Positions 7,430 through 13,326 of a stretch of 15,612 nucleotides of DNA are shown one piece after another. Location of the stretch: the IMG/VR virus record IMGVR_UViG_2778261247_000017; one strand, 5' to 3'. Each line of letters opens with the position of its first letter. Position 1 is the stretch's first letter. A program made the position numbers and the translations under genes. The notes beneath the pieces are model-generated. The model made no database searches. It saw only the letters and a program-made list of their open reading frames with translations, and had not been told where the DNA came from. The DNA comes from a virus (Duplodnaviria > Heunggongvirae > Uroviricota > Caudoviricetes).

Positions 7430-7660
7430 ACCTGTTCACCTTTTTCCTTTTCTCCTTTTAATTCATTGTGTTAATGGGTGAACAGTTTCACAAAAACTAT
7501 TCACCAACTGTTCACCACTGTTCACCCTTAAAGCTCAACAAATAATCAAAAAGGTGAACAGTGAATAGTTTGATGAACAGTTCATGAATAACTGTTCACC
7601 CTATAACCAACTGATATAGAACACATTTATTACAGGGTGAACAGTGATGAACAGTTATTC
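7430..7660. repeat. replication origin-like iteron cluster of TGTTCACC octamers (P4 ori/crr type)
   Basis: Perfect TGTTCACC at 7433, 7509, 7519 and 7593; perfect reverse copies GGTGAACA at 7477, 7553 and 7636; degenerate copies at 7498, 7561, 7574 and 7647. AT-rich flanks. Lies immediately 3' of the primase/helicase gene. Confidence 0.6.
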
Positions 7661-7667
7661 CATAAGT

Positions 7668-9482
7668 TTAATTTTTGCCATCGTCATTTGTGACCGATGC
7701 ACATGAGGGCATCCAGTCTTCTGAATCCTCTGTCAGTATCACGTTTGAACGCAAGCCATGCTTCGTTTTCCGTTTCATATACTCCCTGCCGTATTCCGCC
7801 ATTGCCCCTGGCATATCCTTACCGAAGCGTGTCAGTGTTACGGGCTTACCGAATCCGTGTGCCCTCATATACGCCAGATAGGCGTGATAGAGATACCTGC
7901 GCGGGCTGAACGGAATAATTTCAGCATTACCCACTAACAGGCCATCGCACATTACCGACGACATGAGATAGCCGCAGAAGTCCACCAGCGAATCGCCCTC
8001 GCGTTTTATCACTAGGGCTTCTTCTGATTTCTGCTGCTCATATAGCAGGCGTTTAGCTTCGTCCTGGTCAGAAAAGCGTGTAAGCAGGTGGCGAATCACT
8101 ACCGCCAGCTCTCCTTCTATTTTTTCAGCCAGCATAGGGTCACGTTCGTTCTCCGGTACAACTTCCGAAAAATTGAATATTACCCGACGACGTGATATCC
8201 CACCGCTGCGGTCACTGAATGACATGGCGTTATTGTTCACCGCCAGCACGACCGCCTGAATGCGTGTTGAGTAGGGGGCTTTATGTTTCGGGTCGATTGC
8301 CACCTTATCACCGCCTGTAATGGCCTTAATTCCTGCACCATCACCAGCGTAACGGGTCATATCCGGCATAATAATCAGCGAAAAGCCAACCACTAACGCG
8401 CGTTCCCTGGCATCTTCCAGCGCCTTCATGCTTGCCGATACCGTGTTGGCCTTACCCGCCAGCATAGTGCAAATCTCCGCCATTACGCTTTTACCGCTTC
8501 CACCCGGCCCCGTTACCTCAAGAAATAACTGCCAGTCGTACCGATTCGCCAGCACCATGAATAACGCCGCCAGTACGCGATCCGCTTTGCGTTCATTCTC
8601 TGCCACCGAACGGCGCAACCATTTCCAGAAATTCGGCGCATGCGTTGCCAGCGTTTCCCCCTCTGCTGGCGGGTTGAACGGTAATTCACTGGCAATTAAC
8701 AACCAGTCGTTTTTGTCGTGCTCCCGAAAATCGCCTGTCCGGGTATCAAAAACACCGTTACTGAATCCAATCAGGTTACGGGCGGTATTCCCCATTACGG
8801 GCAAACTTAACTTCATGGTATCGACCGCCGATTTGATGGCGTTCTGCGAATAGCTGATTTCCGCATCAATAAAAATCTGCGCCATAGCCCGCTGTAACTC
8901 TTTATCCTGTACCGGCTCCCATACAACACCGTTGTAGTGGTGAACGGTGTCAGAATCCGCATTGATTGCCAGTTCACCGCCATAATGTGCCAGGAGAACT
9001 TCGCCGCGCTGGCTTGCTCCCATCTGGTTAAGTGCCAGTGGTGTCGCGCTGTCTTCTGTTTTTTTCTTTGCCGGAAACCGGATAATCAGTCCGTCATCAA
9101 TGTTTTTACGCTCACGGGCAAGGTATTCACGCCAGTTTTCACACTTCTGGCTGTGCATGCCATCAGGGTAATAATTCGCATTCTGTATACTTGCCGCCGC
9201 CAGCTTCTGACCAATTGCCTTAACCATTACAGGATCTAACTGTCCGGCTCTGAATATGCGCGCGGATGTGCGCCCATCAGGCACTATTTGCAGATTTCCG
9301 ATCTCTTTCAGTTGTTCATCAGCCAGCACAACAGGTGGCTCATTATCTCCAGCCATACGCGCATCGTGCTCCTGCCATTGTTTCGCGTGTGCCCAGGCAT
9401 CACTACCCGCGAAAATAATTACCTCTGTGTCTTTGTGTTTTATTCCGCGTGGCTGTTTTTTTACGTTCGGTGCCAGTTTCAT
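7668..9482 (-). CDS. replication initiator: P4-alpha-like primase / SF3 helicase with C-terminal DNA-binding region
   Basis: 604 aa; ATG at 9480-9482 preceded by GGGGGG. Walker A GPGGSGKS in mid-protein. Overall layout matches phage/plasmid P4-family primase C-terminal proteins. Followed by cognate-looking iterons. Confidence 0.85.
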   Translation of the reverse strand: MKLAPNVKKQPRGIKHKDTEVIIFAGSDAWAHAKQWQEHDARMAGDNEPPVVLADEQLKEIGNLQIVPDGRTSARIFRAGQLDPVMVKAIGQKLAAASIQNANYYPDGMHSQKCENWREYLARERKNIDDGLIIRFPAKKKTEDSATPLALNQMGASQRGEVLLAHYGGELAINADSDTVHHYNGVVWEPVQDKELQRAMAQIFIDAEISYSQNAIKSAVDTMKLSLPVMGNTARNLIGFSNGVFDTRTGDFREHDKNDWLLIASELPFNPPAEGETLATHAPNFWKWLRRSVAENERKADRVLAALFMVLANRYDWQLFLEVTGPGGSGKSVMAEICTMLAGKANTVSASMKALEDARERALVVGFSLIIMPDMTRYAGDGAGIKAITGGDKVAIDPKHKAPYSTRIQAVVLAVNNNAMSFSDRSGGISRRRVIFNFSEVVPENERDPMLAEKIEGELAVVIRHLLTRFSDQDEAKRLLYEQQKSEEALVIKREGDSLVDFCGYLMSSVMCDGLLVGNAEIIPFSPRRYLYHAYLAYMRAHGFGKPVTLTRFGKDMPGAMAEYGREYMKRKTKHGLRSNVILTEDSEDWMPSCASVTNDDGKN

Positions 9483-9721
9483 TTTTTCCCCCCTGCAACC
9501 AGCATTTCACGGATTTTGCGGATATAGCTTGCTGCACGTTTTTGATTTACGGCTTTATAATGGTCCACCAGCGTAAAATCACGGCGGTAGGTGATATTGC
9601 CTGGCGTAACGTGACGAATAACCACTCGTCCCCCACGTCTGGTGTCGCGGTAAATATCTCCGAGTCTGATTTCAGGCCGAGAGAGACCGCTGGCAGTAAA
9701 GCCAGAATTTTTCTTTTTCAT
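9479..9721 (-). CDS. small basic hypothetical protein (80 aa)
   Basis: ATG at 9719-9721; its stop overlaps the primase start (ATGA), so it is translationally coupled. Confidence 0.5.
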   Translation of the reverse strand: MKKKNSGFTASGLSRPEIRLGDIYRDTRRGGRVVIRHVTPGNITYRRDFTLVDHYKAVNQKRAASYIRKIREMLVAGGKK

Positions 9722-9725
9722 GGTT

Positions 9726-9926
9726 TTATTTTCCTGTCAGCAGTTCCGGTTTTATTTCCGCACGAATATAAAGTTCAGAAAAAAATTCAGGAGAACCAAC
9801 AATCTCATTACTTTTCAGTCGGCATTGTGATTTCACTTTCCCTTTATCCAGGTAAACCAGTACGCGTCCGGTGAAATCATCTGGCACATTAAGCACTACG
9901 GGTACATGCGCTTCATGATTATGCAT
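9726..9926 (-). CDS. small hypothetical protein (66 aa) carrying one copy of an FTG(R/Q)xLV...G.V motif
   Basis: ATG at 9924-9926 preceded by GGAGGA with an 8-nt spacer; 8-nt overlap ATGCATAA with the upstream gene. Paralogous to the N-terminus of the 121-aa protein at 10145-10510. Confidence 0.5.
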   Translation of the reverse strand: MHNHEAHVPVVLNVPDDFTGRVLVYLDKGKVKSQCRLKSNEIVGSPEFFSELYIRAEIKPELLTGK

Positions 9927-10152
9927 GGCTTACATCCTCCGTGAATTTTCTTCTGTAACGCGTCTCTGCCACATATTCCGCATAGTCCGACGCAATACTA
10001 AGAATCATTTCACCCTCTGACTTGTAGCCACTGGTATTGATAAGAAAATATGCAGCTTTCATCATGTCAGCAACGCTCAACAATGCGCCCGCTGCATCTT
10101 CCGGTGCGCCATCAAATTCCCGTTTCAGGGAATTAAAACGATCATCACGCAT
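9919..10152 (-). CDS. small acidic hypothetical protein (77 aa)
   Basis: ATG at 10150-10152 preceded by GGGGGG; 8-nt overlap ATGCGTGA with the upstream gene. Confidence 0.5.
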   Translation of the reverse strand: MRDDRFNSLKREFDGAPEDAAGALLSVADMMKAAYFLINTSGYKSEGEMILSIASDYAEYVAETRYRRKFTEDVSHA

Positions 10153-10510
10153 GTTTCCCCCCCTGAATGACCTGATAACCGCAACTGGTCAGCAACTCGA
10201 TAAATTCCGGCAGTGTACCGAAACAGCAATCATCACGCAGCCGTTCGCAGGATACCTCGACGCCGTTTTCGTAGTGACTCACCATACGTCCGGTAAAATG
10301 CAGATCATCATCGTGATGGCTCGTTGACGGCTTAATCAGTCGCACACGTTCCGCCAGTTCCAGCAATGCTTCAACGCTTCCGGCAATTGCACCATCCGGC
10401 AGGTGATAATTACGCACTATGCGCCCGTTCTCCACATTGACCAGCAACTGCCCGGTAAATTTCTCGTCAAACTGAATGCTGTTAAGGTCAGAAATTGACA
10501 GGTTATGCAT
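10145..10510 (-). CDS. hypothetical protein (121 aa) with two internal copies of the FTG(R/Q)xLV...G.V motif
   Basis: Preferred ATG at 10508-10510 (MHNLSISD), preceded by AGGAGGTG; the ORF-track start at 10528 lacks an SD. 8-nt overlap ATGCATAA with the upstream gene. Confidence 0.55.
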   Translation of the reverse strand: MHNLSISDLNSIQFDEKFTGQLLVNVENGRIVRNYHLPDGAIAGSVEALLELAERVRLIKPSTSHHDDDLHFTGRMVSHYENGVEVSCERLRDDCCFGTLPEFIELLTSCGYQVIQGGKHA

Positions 10511-10727
10511 GGTGCACCTCCTGCACATCAGCCATGATAATTTTTCCGGCCTTATCCAGTGCCTGATCGGCTTTTAGCTGCACAAATGCTAAATAATGGA
10601 AGATGCATTCTGATTCTCTGGCTGCGTGTTTATGCGCCACACCAGCGATAGCAGAAATCTCAATAAGTGAATCCATCAGCGTTTTGATAGCGTCTACCGC
10701 TGCATCAGGCCATGTTGCATTACACAT
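10503..10727 (-). CDS. small hypothetical protein (74 aa)
   Basis: ATG at 10725-10727 preceded by AGGAGGTG; 8-nt overlap ATGTGTAA with the upstream gene. Confidence 0.5.
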   Translation of the reverse strand: MCNATWPDAAVDAIKTLMDSLIEISAIAGVAHKHAARESECIFHYLAFVQLKADQALDKAGKIIMADVQEVHHA

Positions 10728-11085
10728 GCTCCACCTCCTGGCGAATACGGGCGGCGAATACCATCACGCAGCCATCAGGAGATTGCTGGCGTGCTTCCTG
10801 TTCGCTGGTGGCCTCGATGTGAATTACACGCGGTTGTGCTGTGCTCAGGGCGATAAAACGCCATATAAAATTGTTTTCGCATTTCTGAATAAACAGCGTG
10901 TTTTCTTCGCGCCCTTTCCATGTTGCCGAGATATAGCCCATGTCATTGAGCATCTCGCAGGCATCAACCAGCGTATCGGCGGCTATGTGTACAGTGTTTT
11001 TACCGTCAGCGATGCAATCACGGTGCACCGCCAGGAAGGTGTATATAAATTTAGGGTGAGTTTGGGTATGCTGTGTTCCAGCCAT
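10720..11085 (-). CDS. hypothetical protein (121 aa), first gene of the leftward replication operon
   Basis: ATG at 11083-11085 (MAGTQHTQTH) preceded by GAGGTAACG. Protein-like translation. This is the C-terminal, believable part of the 512-codon stop-free frame. Confidence 0.6.
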   Translation of the reverse strand: MAGTQHTQTHPKFIYTFLAVHRDCIADGKNTVHIAADTLVDACEMLNDMGYISATWKGREENTLFIQKCENNFIWRFIALSTAQPRVIHIEATSEQEARQQSPDGCVMVFAARIRQEVEHV

Positions 11086-11174
11086 AATCGTTACCTCGTT
11101 TAACGGTTTGGTTAGACGCCCCGCTACTGCCGCAAACAGTTCGGGGCGTTGTCGTTTACATCCTCTTACCGAGG

Positions 11175-11250
11175 TGTGATTTAAATTAAATTTAACTGAA
11201 TCACAGGTCAAGTATTTTTTGTGATTCTTTTTTGTGTATACTGAATCACA
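11175..11250. promoter_or_regulatory. divergent control region with two TGTGATT-N17-AATCACA inverted-repeat operators and a TATACT -10 candidate
   Basis: IR1 is TGTGATT (11175-11181) paired with AATCACA (11199-11205). IR2 is TGTGATT (11220-11226) paired with AATCACA (11244-11250), identical 17-bp spacing. TATACT at 11237-11242 overlaps IR2, 31 bp before the ATG at 11273. Confidence 0.5.
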
Positions 11251-11272
11251 TCTTTTGTTTAGGAGAATGCAC

Positions 11273-11578
11273 ATGGCAAAAAACACTATCAACGACAAAT
11301 CAAAACAGATTTCAATTCGTATCCCACATGATGCTTTTGAAGGCATGGAATCCGTAAAACTGGACGGCGAAAGCAACGCCGGATTCATCGTAACCGCTAT
11401 GCGCGGTGAGATCGCCCGCCGCCAGGCAGAAGGAAGAGGAGAAAATCCCTTGGTTTCTTCGCTCGATGCACTGGCGCAGGTGGAAAAAATCGGAGTCAAA
11501 GCTGCCGAGGAGATCGGGCAACTCATCACCGTCGCGCGTGAAGAACTCCAGCGCCGCAAGGCCAAAGAACAGGAGTAA
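11273..11578 (+). CDS. small regulator-like protein (101 aa), possibly the element's repressor
   Basis: ATG at 11273 preceded by AGGAGA with a 6-nt spacer. Helical, charged translation with an N-terminal KQISIRIPHDAFEGM segment that could be a ribbon-helix-helix strand. Divergent from the replication operon and flanked by the operators. Confidence 0.6.
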   Translation: MAKNTINDKSKQISIRIPHDAFEGMESVKLDGESNAGFIVTAMRGEIARRQAEGRGENPLVSSLDALAQVEKIGVKAAEEIGQLITVAREELQRRKAKEQE

Positions 11579-11635
11579 CCATCACCAGCGCCGTGGTGTG
11601 AGGAACTACGGTGCATCGTTTTACAGGGCAGCGCC

Positions 11636-11836
11636 ATGACCAACAAAGAATCAACCAATACACCATCACCGGCACGGAAAAGACAGCGCAGAAAGATAGC
11701 GTACGAGTATGAGTCAGACAGATTCGCGCCCTGTGCGTTTATCCTTGAGAAATTCCTTAAAGAGTACAGGCGCACAAAAATGGGGTCGCATACCTGGAAA
11801 ACATCGCGGCATGGCAATGTTAAAGAGCAGGAATAG
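11636..11836 (+). CDS. possible small basic protein (66 aa)
   Basis: In the same frame as 11273-11578, separated by a single TAA and 19 sense codons. Weak SD. Translation is plausible but the call is uncertain. Confidence 0.3.
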   Translation: MTNKESTNTPSPARKRQRRKIAYEYESDRFAPCAFILEKFLKEYRRTKMGSHTWKTSRHGNVKEQE

Positions 11837-11865
11837 CCCACCAGCAAGCCAGCACACTGATCACA

Positions 11866-12258
11866 TTGCCCACCAGCCGCAAATCTGGCATTGTTGGTGA
11901 TGCGTTCAAGTGTGTAGCTTTCCCACTGGTGGCCCTCTGCGGTCGCCTTTGTTTTATCCAGAACGAAATCAGACATCAGATTGGTCAGCACCTGGCGACC
12001 TGACAAAATCGCATCAGTCGCGCCACCAGCAAAATTTTTTGCTCTCCGGACAGCGTGACCAACGGCATTTTGCAGCAAAATATTCTGCATTTCTGGTGTG
12101 CTGTAGTAACGGTGATCAGCGCCTTCACTCTGTGCGACCACAACGCTATAATCTGCCTCGTAGACAGTAAGCAATATGGCGCAGTAGGCTATTCGTTCAC
12201 AAAGGCGCTCCGGCAACGGGGCGCTTTCTCTTTTTGTAACGGTCAGAACGTTACACAT
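11866..12258 (-). CDS. hypothetical protein; N-terminal about 130 codons are convincing, C-terminus unresolved
   Basis: ATG at 12256-12258 preceded by GGAGGA with an 8-nt spacer; 8-nt overlap ATGTGTAA with the antirepressor stop. The frame has no stop before 10720, so the 11866 end is my estimate of where the protein-like sequence ends. A Cys cluster C-x2-C-x8-C-x5-C follows. Confidence 0.4.
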
Positions 12259-13051
12259 GGCTGTTTTCCTCCATGCGACGGGCTAACCAACGCTGCGAAA
12301 GACGAATTAATTCAGCTTTCCGCTGGTGGTAGTCCTGGCCTAACTCAATCAGCGTGATATTGCTCTGCTCAAGGTAAGAAAGGTGCTCAAGCTGCAACGT
12401 GCTCATGTGGTCGCGTGGTTCGCCTGTGATGCCGTTCGCCTGCGCCCACTGTTTTGCAGTCATGCCACCCAGCACGATACGCGCCAGCATATTGGCTTCC
12501 GTGGTGTAGTGGTGCTGTAGAGTGTTTTTACCCAGTTCAGCCCGGTACGCCTCCAGCGCGGCACACATTGGCTTAAAGTAGCTGGCAACTGTGATACGGG
12601 CTTTCAGTTCCCGGCGTAACGCTGCGGAACGAACAGGCGCAACCTTGTGTAGCTCCTCCTCGCATTTGATAAAGTACTGGCGAACGGCGCGGCCCTGTTC
12701 GGTACGTTCGACCATCGCCAGTTCTTTCGCCATGTTCACGGTGGTGATGTACTCAAGAGCTGTTTGCTGGCGAGATTTTGCGCTCACCGGATCGGGTCGG
12801 CTCAAATATTCAACAACCTCATAATCCACGCCTTCCGTGAAGCCGTATTCTTCAATGCGCCCCTTGATCCACGAACGGAAAACGCGCCCTACACCTAACG
12901 CCTTATGCAACGCTCTGGCGCTAACAATATTGGTTTCACGCCCGCCAATAACGCCGGAAATAACCGGGATAATTTCGCCGAAATTTTGCAGATTCTGGTT
13001 TTCAGGCCGAACGAAGCCCTGCCCCTGTACGGGCGTTTTTCGCAGTTTCAT
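12251..13051 (-). CDS. phage antirepressor (AntA N-terminal / KilA-C-type)
   Basis: ATG at 13049-13051 preceded by AGGAG; 266 aa. N-terminal ARALHKALGVGRVFRSWIKGRIEEYGFTEGVDYEV is typical of the AntA/AntB antirepressor N-domain. Confidence 0.75.
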   Translation of the reverse strand: MKLRKTPVQGQGFVRPENQNLQNFGEIIPVISGVIGGRETNIVSARALHKALGVGRVFRSWIKGRIEEYGFTEGVDYEVVEYLSRPDPVSAKSRQQTALEYITTVNMAKELAMVERTEQGRAVRQYFIKCEEELHKVAPVRSAALRRELKARITVASYFKPMCAALEAYRAELGKNTLQHHYTTEANMLARIVLGGMTAKQWAQANGITGEPRDHMSTLQLEHLSYLEQSNITLIELGQDYHQRKAELIRLSQRWLARRMEENSHV

Positions 13052-13128: not shown

Positions 13129-13326
13129 TCAGGTAGCTGTTCCACGTGATTCCGCAATACGCTGATTAATCCACTCGTCAATTTCACTCTCAACGAAAGC
13201 AATAGCTCGCGAGCCAATTTTAACTGATGCAGGAAATTTGCCTTGCCCCATAAGGCGATAAATCCATGCCTTGCTATATCCAGTTCTACGCTGAACTTCC
13301 GTTAAACGAATAAGAGAGTTTGCCAT
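13129..13326 (-). CDS. alpA: AlpA-family phage transcriptional regulator / excisionase-like (Vis-like)
   Basis: 65 aa; ATG at 13324-13326 preceded by AAGGTGA. Motif LIRLTEVQRRTGYSKAWIYRLMGQGKFP is the AlpA/Vis HTH signature. Confidence 0.9.
   Translation of the reverse strand: MANSLIRLTEVQRRTGYSKAWIYRLMGQGKFPASVKIGSRAIAFVESEIDEWINQRIAESRGTAT

What the first reader, a model, noticed from the sequence alone, without database searches (positions are those of the whole stretch)
10720..12258. 1.5-kb stop-free frame; the gene starting at 12258 has no identifiable end
The minus-strand frame from the ATG at 12256-12258 runs 512 codons without a stop, through the antisense of two plus-strand ORFs and the control region, and in frame into the 121-aa gene. 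I checked every triplet of 11581-12255 in this frame and found no stop. The first 130 or so codons are protein-like, followed by a Cys cluster (C-x2-C-x8-C-x5-C) and then Cys/Ser-rich sequence. Either the C-terminus genuinely overlaps convergent genes, the stop has been lost, or there is a sequence error.
Basis: seen in the sequence. Interest (0 to 1): 0.4.

Follow-up and report, generated by a model that had tools for sequence, protein, structure and literature searches.

The report
Conserved read-through ORF across an immunity cassette
The 1.5-kb stop-free frame is real and conserved: it resembles the "eta/kil" nested gene pair of satellite phage P4, a long frame kept open through an oppositely oriented repressor cassette and ending in a small cell-division-inhibitor-like (Icd-like) gene, probably so that ribosomes can carry induced transcripts past the repressor-controlled switch.

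Summary
Window 10720-12258 (minus strand) is one 512-codon ORF, while the other two same-strand frames carry 23 and 29 stops over the upstream 1341 nt.

It is not an accident, a lost stop or a sequencing error. I recovered 82 related loci using only the 73-aa Icd-like C-terminus. In 33 of 37 distinct upstream architectures, including one from Klebsiella, the same frame stays open for 266-606 codons.

- **Spacer length:** the non-coding divergent control region comes in nine or more lengths, all equal to 1 mod 3.
- **Antisense genes:** every antisense repressor allele sits wobble-on-wobble with the long frame and has zero antisense stops. Control genes have 1.9-7.4 per 100 codons.
- **Start:** the ATG overlaps the antA stop (ATGTGTAA) behind a GGAGG.
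- **End:** the ORF ends at the stop of the Icd-like gene. That C-terminus matches NF033153 as strongly as P4 Kil does.

This is the architecture of the P4 eta/kil nested genes. What differs is the content of the ORF. P4 eta holds the CI RNA and seqA; this ORF holds a plus-strand protein immunity cassette (an RHH-like YlcI/YnfO repressor, a 66-aa gene, terminators and operators).

The first about 130 codons show no protein-level constraint.

The exact 512-aa product is already deposited (WP_224478068.1). I rate it a new variant of a known kind, of moderate interest.

The parts
10720..12258 (-). Eta-like long read-through ORF of 512 codons, with the nested Icd/Kil-like gene as its in-frame C-terminal part.
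   Evidence: Searches show the ORF. The open frame is conserved in 33 of 37 upstream architectures. NF033153 matches residues 464-507 at 75.6 bits, the same layout as P4 Eta residues 144-191. The exact product is deposited as WP_224478068.1.
12251..12272 (-). Translational-coupling junction: GGAGG (12272-12268), the long-ORF ATG (12258-12256) and the antA stop TAA (12253-12251), forming an 8-nt ATGTGTAA overlap.
   Evidence: The junction is identical in all antA-type relatives. Klebsiella locus L003 has a different sequence but the same layout: GGAGG followed by an ATGA overlap.
10720..11085 (-). Nested Kil/Icd-like gene of 121 aa with its own GAGG and ATG. RefSeq annotates only 10720-10941 (73 aa).
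   Evidence: Its N-terminus aligns with the N-terminus of P4 Kil (9 of 20 identical, E = 1e-5). P4 Kil itself scores 76.1 bits on NF033153. Annotation.
11086..11272 (.). Divergent control region lying inside the ORF. It holds TGTGATTC/GAATCACA operator-like repeats (11195-11205, 11220-11227, 11240-11250), a conserved minus-strand TTGACC -35 box (11211-11206) and a 5'-UTR hairpin (11116-11149).
   Evidence: Each repressor allele has its own repeat sequence around a conserved TTGAC. The region has nine or more lengths, all equal to 1 mod 3.
11273..11578 (+). YlcI/YnfO-family, RHH-like candidate immunity repressor, encoded antisense within the long ORF.
   Evidence: NF041551 at 64.9 bits. phrog_6522 matched over its full length at 2.8e-57. 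It sits wobble-on-wobble with the long ORF and has 0 antisense stops.
11636..11836 (+). Conserved 66-aa gene of unknown function, also encoded antisense within the long ORF.
   Evidence: phrog_21027 at 6.3e-31. Its three Tyr codons each follow a G-ending codon, so no antisense stop arises (sequence; P0 = 0.154).
11928..11957 (+). Plus-strand intrinsic terminator T1 (GGTGGCC-CTCTGC-GGTCGCC then TTTGTTTTAT). It probably ends the repressor operon. Translated on the minus strand it gives the conserved 'KTKAT' motif.
   Evidence: The group-B relatives carry a perfect GGCCACC/GGTGGCC stem followed by TTTGTTTTG.
12124..12237 (+). Candidate antisense small-RNA unit: promoter-like TTCACT-17-TATAAT (12124-12152), then a strong terminator T2 (12202-12227 plus a T-run).
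   Evidence: The -10 box is TATAAT or TAAAAT at a near-constant distance (about 49-52 nt) from the terminator in 20 distinct alleles, although the body between them varies. Only the terminator hairpin is a consensus structure. No Rfam family matches.
12251..13051 (-). antA/AntB-family gene whose stop overlaps the start of the long ORF.
   Evidence: Pfam AntA at 4.1e-22. RefSeq annotation.

Best explanation
The window is a phage-satellite island (PICI or P4-like) integrated at tRNA-Thr next to proA in avian pathogenic E. coli. Its minus-strand operon is a chain of translationally coupled genes from antA to the primase, preceded by an AlpA-like HTH gene.

The 512-codon frame is the link in that chain. 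It starts on the antA stop codon and reads antisense through the island's plus-strand immunity cassette. That cassette holds two terminators, a 66-aa gene, an RHH-type repressor, and the divergent promoter/operator region, which includes the repressor-controlled promoter of the replication operon. The frame then merges with the small Kil/Icd-like gene, which can also be translated alone from the internal promoter.

This is the logic of the nested eta/kil genes of phage P4. By analogy, I infer that transcripts from the upstream induced promoter stay covered by ribosomes across about 1.2 kb that would otherwise be untranslated. That would let them escape Rho-dependent (and hairpin-dependent) termination, bypass the repressed internal promoter, and reach the replication genes.

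Shown here: the ORF, its conservation, its frame maintenance, its coupling signals, and its relationship to P4 Kil. Inferred: that translation itself, rather than the polypeptide upstream of the Icd-like domain, is what selection preserves, and that its role is anti-termination.
For: - **Conserved open frame.** 33 of 37 upstream architectures keep the Icd frame open for 266-606 codons. The other same-strand frames carry 7-34 stops. The set was recovered with the 73-aa C-terminus only, so it is not selected for the upstream frame. It includes a Klebsiella locus with 44% Icd identity.
- **Frame kept across non-coding DNA.** The control regions have lengths 136, 178, 181, 187, 190, 193, 196, 199 and 208 nt, all equal to 1 mod 3.
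- **Antisense genes tuned to the frame.** All repressor and second-gene alleles share wobble positions with the long ORF. All have 0 antisense stops, although synonymous resampling gives P0 of 0.07-0.5 per repressor allele and up to 0.84 for the second small gene. Other genes in the window have 1.9-7.4 stops per 100 codons.
- **Translation signals.** GGAGG and an ATG overlapping the upstream stop are present here and, with a different sequence, in Klebsiella. Most downstream junctions as far as the primase are coupled the same way.
- **Link to P4.** P4 Kil and the C-terminus here hit NF033153 at 76 and 75.6 bits. P4 Eta has the same C-terminal placement. The N-terminus of the nested gene aligns with that of Kil.
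- **Published P4 mechanism.** PMC10111431, section 20, citing Forti et al. 1999, states that eta starts upstream of the constitutive promoter, is translationally coupled to the alpA homologue, and that its translation prevents termination.
- **No protein-level constraint upstream of the Icd domain**.
- **Clear path for minus-strand transcription.** No minus-strand intrinsic-terminator-like site lies between 12258 and 10720.
Against: - There are no expression, ribosome-profiling or Rho data for this element. Anti-termination is inferred by analogy only.
- The P4 hallmarks inside eta (CI RNA and seqA) are absent here, so the control circuit differs and the function could differ too.
- The substitution sample for the N-terminal part is small (43 changes).
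- Many loci share recombining modules, so the 33 architectures are not fully independent.
- A subgroup of relatives (L035, L039, L044 and L047 types) does without the long frame. They also lack the antA/Bro gene.
- RefSeq for this genome annotates only the 73-aa C-terminus.
Confidence: 0.7

Rival explanations
1. The 512-aa product is a genuine multi-domain protein. On this view its N-terminal and middle parts have their own biochemical function, for example as a regulator of the 'Bro network', and the antisense overlap with the repressor genes is a true dual-coding region.
For: The frame is conserved and has good initiation signals. PGAP names full-length versions 'Icd-like protein'. PMC10111431 groups P4 eta with Bro-network genes.
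Against: - No Pfam or PHROG family matches residues 1-153, and none matches the full length apart from the Icd domain.
- The middle is simply the antisense of whichever repressor allele is present, and it differs completely between loci.
- The N-terminal part shows no codon-position bias, and an allelic block keeps only about 5 of 22 residues.
- Total length ranges from 266 to 606 codons.
- The Cys pattern is not conserved.
- There are no relatives outside these ORFs.
Confidence: 0.15
2. The open frame is a passive by-product. Either it is a chance or composition-driven antisense ORF, or constraints on the plus-strand features (genes, terminators, operators) happen to exclude TTA, CTA and TCA in that register.
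For: Antisense frames that share wobble positions can be stop-poor. For single genes P0 is not tiny, at 0.07-0.8.
Against: - The joint probability across more than 10 distinct repressor alleles is about 1e-8, by my own multiplication of the values.
- The non-coding control region keeps both its openness and its length mod 3 through nine length variants.
- In this window alone, chance gives 0.0008 x 0.012 x 0.037 before the 1/3 probability of being in frame with icd.
- Control genes show 1.9-7.4 stops per 100 codons.
- Related loci that lack antA/Bro do have stops just upstream of the nested gene.
Confidence: 0.05
3. One reading: a separate gene of about 130 codons starts at 12258, and its stop has been lost by mutation, or the sequence contains an error around 11800-11900.
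For: RefSeq leaves 11837-12250 unannotated, which could suggest a damaged gene.
Against: - The identical sequence occurs in two complete genomes, and the frame is identical in dozens of independent assemblies.
- No relative shows a stop near codon 130-170.
- One relative (P0002, 234 aa) joins the N-terminal 153 residues directly, in frame, to the Icd-like part.
Confidence: 0.03

Closest known systems
Nested eta/kil genes of satellite phage P4 (Forti et al. 1999, J Bacteriol 181:5225; summarised in PMC10111431)
   Same: - A long ORF starts by translational coupling at the end of the gene upstream.
- It spans the immunity region and the internal early promoter.
- It ends in frame with a small Kil/Icd-like gene (NF033153), which also has its own start.
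- It lies between the integration/alpA module and the primase operon of an integrase-bearing satellite.
- The sequence upstream of Kil does not look like a protein in either case.
   Different: - P4 eta is 197 codons and contains same-strand RNA elements. In the P4 positive control, Rfam C4 (the CI RNA), isrK and c4-a1b1 (seqA) all fall inside it.
- This ORF is 512 codons and has none of those RNAs.
- Instead it runs antisense through two protein-coding genes, two plus-strand terminators and a divergent operator region.
- The upstream partner is antA, not the AlpA/Vis homologue.
Phage P1 immI operon (c4 RNA - icd - ant)
   Same: An Icd-family small protein sits next to an antirepressor-family gene within an immunity region, and neighbouring genes are translationally coupled. 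The P1 details are from my own knowledge.
   Different: The gene order is reversed: antA precedes icd here. There is no C4 RNA. P1 has no long read-through ORF of this kind, as far as I know.
Bro zone of Gram-negative phage-inducible chromosomal islands (PICIs; PMC10111431, PMC13612085)
   Same: The gene content and order match: int, an AlpA-like HTH gene, an AntA/Bro gene, an Icd-like gene, a primase, PerC, ProQ/FinO. PMC13612085 reports an Icd-like protein in most of the elements it examined.
   Different: In the sections I read, neither paper describes a long frame crossing an antisense protein-repressor cassette, and neither describes stop avoidance in the repressor genes.

Membership tests
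P4 eta/kil-type nested read-through ORF | The C-terminal part is a Kil/Icd-family domain (NCBIfam NF033153). | tested here: met
   Residues 464-507 score 75.6 bits against a cut-off of 25. P4 Kil scores 76.1 bits and P4 Eta residues 144-191 score 73.3 bits.
P4 eta/kil-type nested read-through ORF | A short gene with its own ribosome-binding site and ATG is nested in the same frame. | tested here: met
   ATG 11085 is preceded by GAGG. Its N-terminus aligns with that of P4 Kil (9/20 identical, E = 1e-5). The nested start is conserved in relatives.
P4 eta/kil-type nested read-through ORF | The long ORF starts upstream of the internal promoter and is translationally coupled to the preceding gene. 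| tested here: met
   GGAGG, then 9 nt, then an ATG overlapping the antA stop (ATGTGTAA). Klebsiella L003 has GGAGG and an ATGA overlap. The partner gene is antA rather than the alpA homologue.
P4 eta/kil-type nested read-through ORF | A promoter for the early/replication operon lies inside the ORF. | tested here: inconclusive
   A TTGAC -35 box facing icd is conserved and flanked by allele-specific operator repeats in most of the 12 alleles shown (L020 has TTGCA; none is evident in L074). The strict consensus scan did not call a promoter there. No transcript data exist.
P4 eta/kil-type nested read-through ORF | The immunity RNA (CI, Rfam C4) and its target seqA (isrK, c4-a1b1) lie inside the ORF. 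| tested here: not met
   No hits in the window at E <= 1, or at E <= 10 over 11050-12300. No hits at gathering score in 18 related loci. The positive control in P4 gave 74.9, 60.8 and 44.1 bits.
P4 eta/kil-type nested read-through ORF | Translation of the long ORF suppresses Rho-dependent termination (at timm), allowing read-through from the late promoter. | not testable with these tools
   This needs transcript mapping, Rho inhibition and stop-codon mutants.
Gram-negative PICI / P4-like satellite island | An integrase at a tRNA site, an AlpA-like HTH gene, a Bro/Ant-zone gene and a primase, in one orientation. | tested here: met
   RefSeq annotation of the identical locus shows tRNA-Thr, int, HTH, antA, Icd-like, DUF4222, primase, PerC and ProQ/FinO. 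No sid, delta or psu genes were seen, so it is not a canonical P4. The ProQ-like gene is frameshifted, so the island may be partly decayed.
Antisense overlapping protein-coding gene pair | Both strands show evidence of selection on the integrity of their own reading frame. | tested here: met
   Plus strand: full-length PHROG and NCBIfam matches. Minus strand: the frame stays open and in phase across all alleles. Selection on the minus-strand amino-acid sequence was not found.

The most novel reading that the evidence does not exclude
In this family of satellites selection preserves an act of translation, not a protein. A ribosome 'bridge' of up to 600 codons is kept open through an oppositely oriented repressor cassette. 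To allow this, the repressor genes avoid Tyr, His and Gln contexts that would create antisense stops, and the promoter/operator spacer is held to one length class mod 3. The bridge would let induced upstream transcription override the repressor-controlled promoter while colliding with repressor transcription. It may itself be gated by a cis-antisense small RNA at 12159-12237.
Probability: 0.45. Interest if true: 0.65.

Novelty: new variant of a known kind. Interest (0 to 1): 0.5.

Why it matters
- **Annotation.** The finding explains why annotation of these islands is inconsistent. The same ORF is called 73, 121, 214-264 or 512 aa.
- **Overlapping genes.** It is an unusually well-supported bacterial case of a long ORF kept open antisense to real genes, with measurable codon-level accommodation on the other strand.
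- **Satellite biology.** If the anti-termination reading is right, the P4 eta principle (translation used as an anti-terminator across the immunity region) extends to satellites with protein repressors. The switch between repression and induction becomes directly testable with stop-codon mutants that are silent on the opposite strand.
- **Immunity types.** The region holds at least ten immunity specificities of the same cassette.

Tried and rejected
- **RNA families.** I searched Rfam over the whole window (E <= 1) and over 11050-12300 (E <= 10) for a C4/CI, isrK or c4-a1b1 RNA. Nothing relevant appeared, only chance miRNA, ctRNA and R1162-like hits. The same search at gathering score on 18 related loci gave only the int-alpA RNA far upstream.
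- **Protein families.** Pfam and PHROGs gave nothing for the N-terminal 153 aa or for the other plus-strand ORFs, 11709-11900 and 11910-12170.
- **Phage collection.** tblastn of the 121-aa protein against phage genomes gave one weak hit and did not find P4. The P4 link came from the NCBIfam profile instead.
- **Genome collection.** Scanning one genome per species returned only two loci.
- **Indel census.** A BLAST-based count of indels between alleles was uninformative, because alignments in the divergent mosaic parts split frame-neutral differences into 1- and 2-nt gaps. I replaced it with the control-region length test.
- **Small-RNA structure.** The consensus fold of the candidate plus-strand small RNA showed only the terminator hairpin and no covariation.
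- **Literature.** Forti et al. 1999 (PMC94026) is not held, so the P4 mechanism is cited second-hand from PMC10111431. Searches found no description of this variant.
- **Not attempted.** I did not run structure prediction. The alignment would have been shallow, and a low-confidence model would not separate the hypotheses.
Full report
**1. The observation**

The ORF listing reports a single ORF at 10720..12258 on the minus strand, 512 aa with an ATG start. Its translation has no internal stop.
- The ATG at 12258-12256 overlaps the TAA of the upstream gene at 12253-12251.
- The frame runs antisense through plus-strand ORFs at 11273-11578 and 11636-11836, then through the intergenic region 11086-11272.
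- It enters the 121-aa ORF that starts at ATG 11085 in phase.
- The C-x2-C-x8-C-x5-C string is present.

Over the 1341 nt upstream of the Icd-like domain, the other two same-strand frames carry 23 and 29 stops. Composition shuffles leave 11837-12258 open with P = 0.0008 and 11086-11272 open with P = 0.012. Synonymous resampling of the two antisense genes leaves the frame open with P = 0.037. So the frame is real and is not what chance would give.

**2. Where the window comes from**

The region is 100% identical to the chromosome of E. coli APEC IMT5155. RefSeq places it in an island next to tRNA-Thr and proA. Reading along the minus strand, the annotated genes are:
- integrase
- a hypothetical protein
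- a small HTH gene (13129-13326)
- an antA/AntB-family gene (12251-13051)
- an unannotated gap (11837-12250)
- on the opposite strand, a 66-aa hypothetical gene (11636-11836) and a YlcI/YnfO-family gene (11273-11578)
- an 'Icd-like' gene, annotated only as 10720-10941 (73 aa)
- five small genes (four hypothetical, one DUF4222), a primase, PerC and a frameshifted ProQ/FinO-like gene

This is the gene set described for Gram-negative PICI-type satellites.

Both plus-strand genes are full-length members of PHROG families: phrog_6522 at 2.8e-57 and phrog_21027 at 6.3e-31. The first also matches NCBIfam YlcI_YnfO_N at 64.9 bits. So the antisense genes are real.

**3. Relatives show that the open frame is a conserved property**

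A protein search with the first 153 residues returned many Escherichia proteins of 214-264 aa named 'Icd-like'. They carry the same N-terminal motif, then unrelated middles, then the Icd-like C-terminus.

To avoid ascertainment bias, I fetched loci using only the 73-aa Icd-like C-terminus. This gave 80 IMG/VR contigs, one E. ruysiae locus and one Klebsiella locus. For each I measured how far the Icd frame stays open upstream.

The upstream regions fall into 37 clusters. In 33 of them the frame is open for 266-606 codons, while the other frames carry 7-34 stops. Five of the 33 are cut short by the contig end. The translations show a mosaic of different modules.

The conserved 121-nt piece (window 11837-11957) is always in the same phase with icd when present, at spacings from 361 to 1215 nt.

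The four short-frame clusters (L035, L039, L044 and L047 types) lack the antA/Bro gene. In the two I inspected (L035, L039) a cargo gene sits in its place.

The exact 512-aa product is already deposited as AJB38081.1 and WP_224478068.1. Its 90%-identity cluster has 65 members, most of the listed ones 512 aa long.

**4. Evidence that the frame, not the protein, is under selection**

*(a) Phase.* Every plausible repressor allele and every allele of the second small gene lies in the one antisense phase where the wobble positions of both strands coincide.

*(b) Stop avoidance.* All these genes have zero antisense stops. An exact calculation over synonymous codons gives P0 of only 0.07-0.5 per repressor allele. 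The other genes of the window carry 1.9-7.4 stops per 100 codons in the same relative frame. In the window's own genes:
- the YlcI-like protein has no Tyr, and none of its seven His/Gln codons follows a T-ending codon;
- the three Tyr codons of the 66-aa gene all follow G-ending codons (read from the sequence).

*(c) Spacer length.* The non-coding control region between the repressor ATG and the nested icd ATG occurs in lengths of 136, 178, 181, 187, 190, 193, 196, 199 and 208 nt. Every one equals 1 mod 3.

*(d) No constraint on the N-terminal sequence.* Among relatives, substitutions in the N-terminal about 130 codons fall evenly on codon positions (13/14/16). 14 of 43 are synonymous, no different from the two control frames. 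One block is replaced by an allele about 45% divergent, with a 3-nt length change, keeping about 5 of 22 residues.

*(e) No outside relatives.* A search of 1.84 billion representative proteins found none for the N-terminal 130 residues outside this set of ORFs.

*(f) No conserved Cys pattern.* The Cys pattern varies freely between relatives.

**5. Translation signals**

The long ORF has GGAGG nine nucleotides upstream of an ATG that overlaps the antA stop (ATGTGTAA). The Klebsiella locus has a different sequence but the same design: GGAGG and an ATGA overlap.

Most downstream junctions are built the same way, as far as the primase (ATGTGTAA, ATGCGTGA, ATGCATAA, ATGA). The long ORF is therefore the link that keeps translational coupling unbroken from antA to the replication genes.

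**6. What lies inside the ORF**

*Control region.* It holds a conserved TTGAC box facing icd. Operator-like repeats flank it and differ with each repressor allele: TGTGATTC here, and GGTATTCAC, GTGTAAGAC, GTGTTCAACAC, GTGTCCGACA, GTGGGCCACACC, GGTAATTACC and others elsewhere. The region therefore behaves as an immunity region with many specificities. The RHH-like YlcI-family protein is the likely repressor.

*Plus strand of the unannotated gap.* It holds:
- an intrinsic terminator, T1 (11928-11957);
- a promoter-like site (12124-12152);
- a strong terminator, T2 (12202-12237).

The last two outline a candidate antisense small RNA of about 78 nt. Its -10 box and terminator are conserved in 20 alleles while its body varies. 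Only the terminator hairpin is a consensus structure.

The 'SAPLPER' and 'KTKAT' motifs are the terminators read backwards.

**7. The closest known system**

PMC10111431 (section 20, citing Forti et al. 1999) describes P4 eta as follows:
- A constitutive promoter lies inside eta.
- Kil is the truncated, in-frame C-terminal product.
- Full-length Eta is translated only from an upstream late promoter.
- Eta translation prevents termination, so the late transcript reads through.

In the P4 sequence, eta is 8168-8761 (197 codons) and kil is its last 65 codons. Rfam places C4 (the CI RNA), isrK and c4-a1b1 (seqA) inside it.

P4 Kil, P4 Eta and the ORF here all match NF033153 at about 75 bits at their C-termini. 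The N-terminus of the nested gene aligns with that of Kil.

The architecture is therefore the same. The difference is the immunity determinant. There is no C4, isrK or c4-a1b1 RNA here or in 18 related loci. Instead the ORF contains an oppositely oriented protein-coding cassette, which makes it 2.6 times longer and forces a true antisense overlap with two genes.

**8. Mechanism and confidence**

Shown:
- a conserved, phase-maintained ORF with translational-coupling signals, ending in a Kil/Icd-family gene;
- an embedded immunity cassette;
- no minus-strand terminator-like site within it.

Inferred by analogy with P4: translation of this frame on transcripts from the upstream promoter prevents Rho-dependent or hairpin-dependent termination. 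That would let induced transcription bypass the repressed internal promoter.

I give about 0.85 to 'conserved eta/kil-type read-through ORF' and about 0.55 to the specific anti-termination role. My overall confidence is 0.7.

The rivals are less likely, for the reasons in sections 3 and 4:
- a functional long protein (0.15);
- a passive by-product of plus-strand constraints (0.05);
- a lost stop or sequencing error (0.03).

**9. Novelty**

The ORF itself is already in the databases, and the principle is known from P4. The literature I could search did not describe two things: the long frame crossing an antisense protein-repressor cassette, and the codon-level and length-level accommodation that keeps it open. 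I rate it a new variant of a known kind, with interest 0.5.

Noticed in passing
window 12124-12237 (+): Candidate antisense small RNA of about 78 nt. A TTCACT-17-TATAAT promoter-like site is followed by a strong terminator (12202-12227 plus a T-run), overlapping codons of about 8-33 of the long ORF. The -10 box and the terminator are conserved in 20 alleles, while the body is allelic. No Rfam family matches.
   Followed up: partly
window 11928-11957 (+): Conserved plus-strand intrinsic terminator just downstream of the 66-aa gene. It accounts for the widely conserved 121-nt piece (11837-11957), which is found in about 900 E. coli genomes at 75-87% identity.
   Followed up: partly
window 11086-11272, and the same region in L019, L021, L031, L069, L074, L077, L082, L020 and L003: At least ten immunity types. 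Each repressor N-terminal allele comes with its own operator-like repeat sequence around a conserved TTGAC box. A GC-rich 5'-UTR hairpin (11116-11149 here) changes sequence but is kept in all alleles.
   Followed up: partly
window 7668-13051 (-): Most gene junctions from antA to the primase pair a GGAGG-type site with a start codon that overlaps the previous stop (8-nt ATGnnTAA/TGA overlaps, or ATGA). The operon is thus nearly one continuous translational-coupling chain.
   Followed up: yes
window 7473-7604: An AT-rich stretch just downstream of the primase gene, with repeated and inverted GTTCAC/GTGAAC units. It gave spurious plant-miRNA Rfam hits. It could be the island's replication origin, with iterons.
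   Followed up: no
window 10720-11085, and RefSeq NZ_CP005930.1: Annotation is inconsistent. Current RefSeq calls only a 73-aa Icd-like gene here, the alignment with P4 Kil supports the 121-aa start, and NCBI also holds the full 512-aa product (WP_224478068.1). Related genomes carry 214-264-aa versions that start at arbitrary internal ATGs.
   Followed up: yes
L035 and L039 (L044 and L047 not inspected): A subgroup of related islands lacks the antA/Bro gene and the long frame. In L035 and L039 a cargo gene (291 aa forward, or 227 aa reverse) sits between alpA and a small RHH repressor. This is a natural comparison set for the function of the long ORF.
   Followed up: partly
L002, L019, L020, L025, L059, L068, L074 and L078, about 450-1330: The Rfam int-alpA RNA (RF02996) is present upstream in eight of the 18 related loci scanned, but was not detected in this window.
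   Followed up: no
window 2153-3645 (-): A DUF4747-family gene and an adjacent 199-aa hypothetical gene lie at the far end of the island in a low-GC stretch. They may be defence cargo.
   Followed up: no
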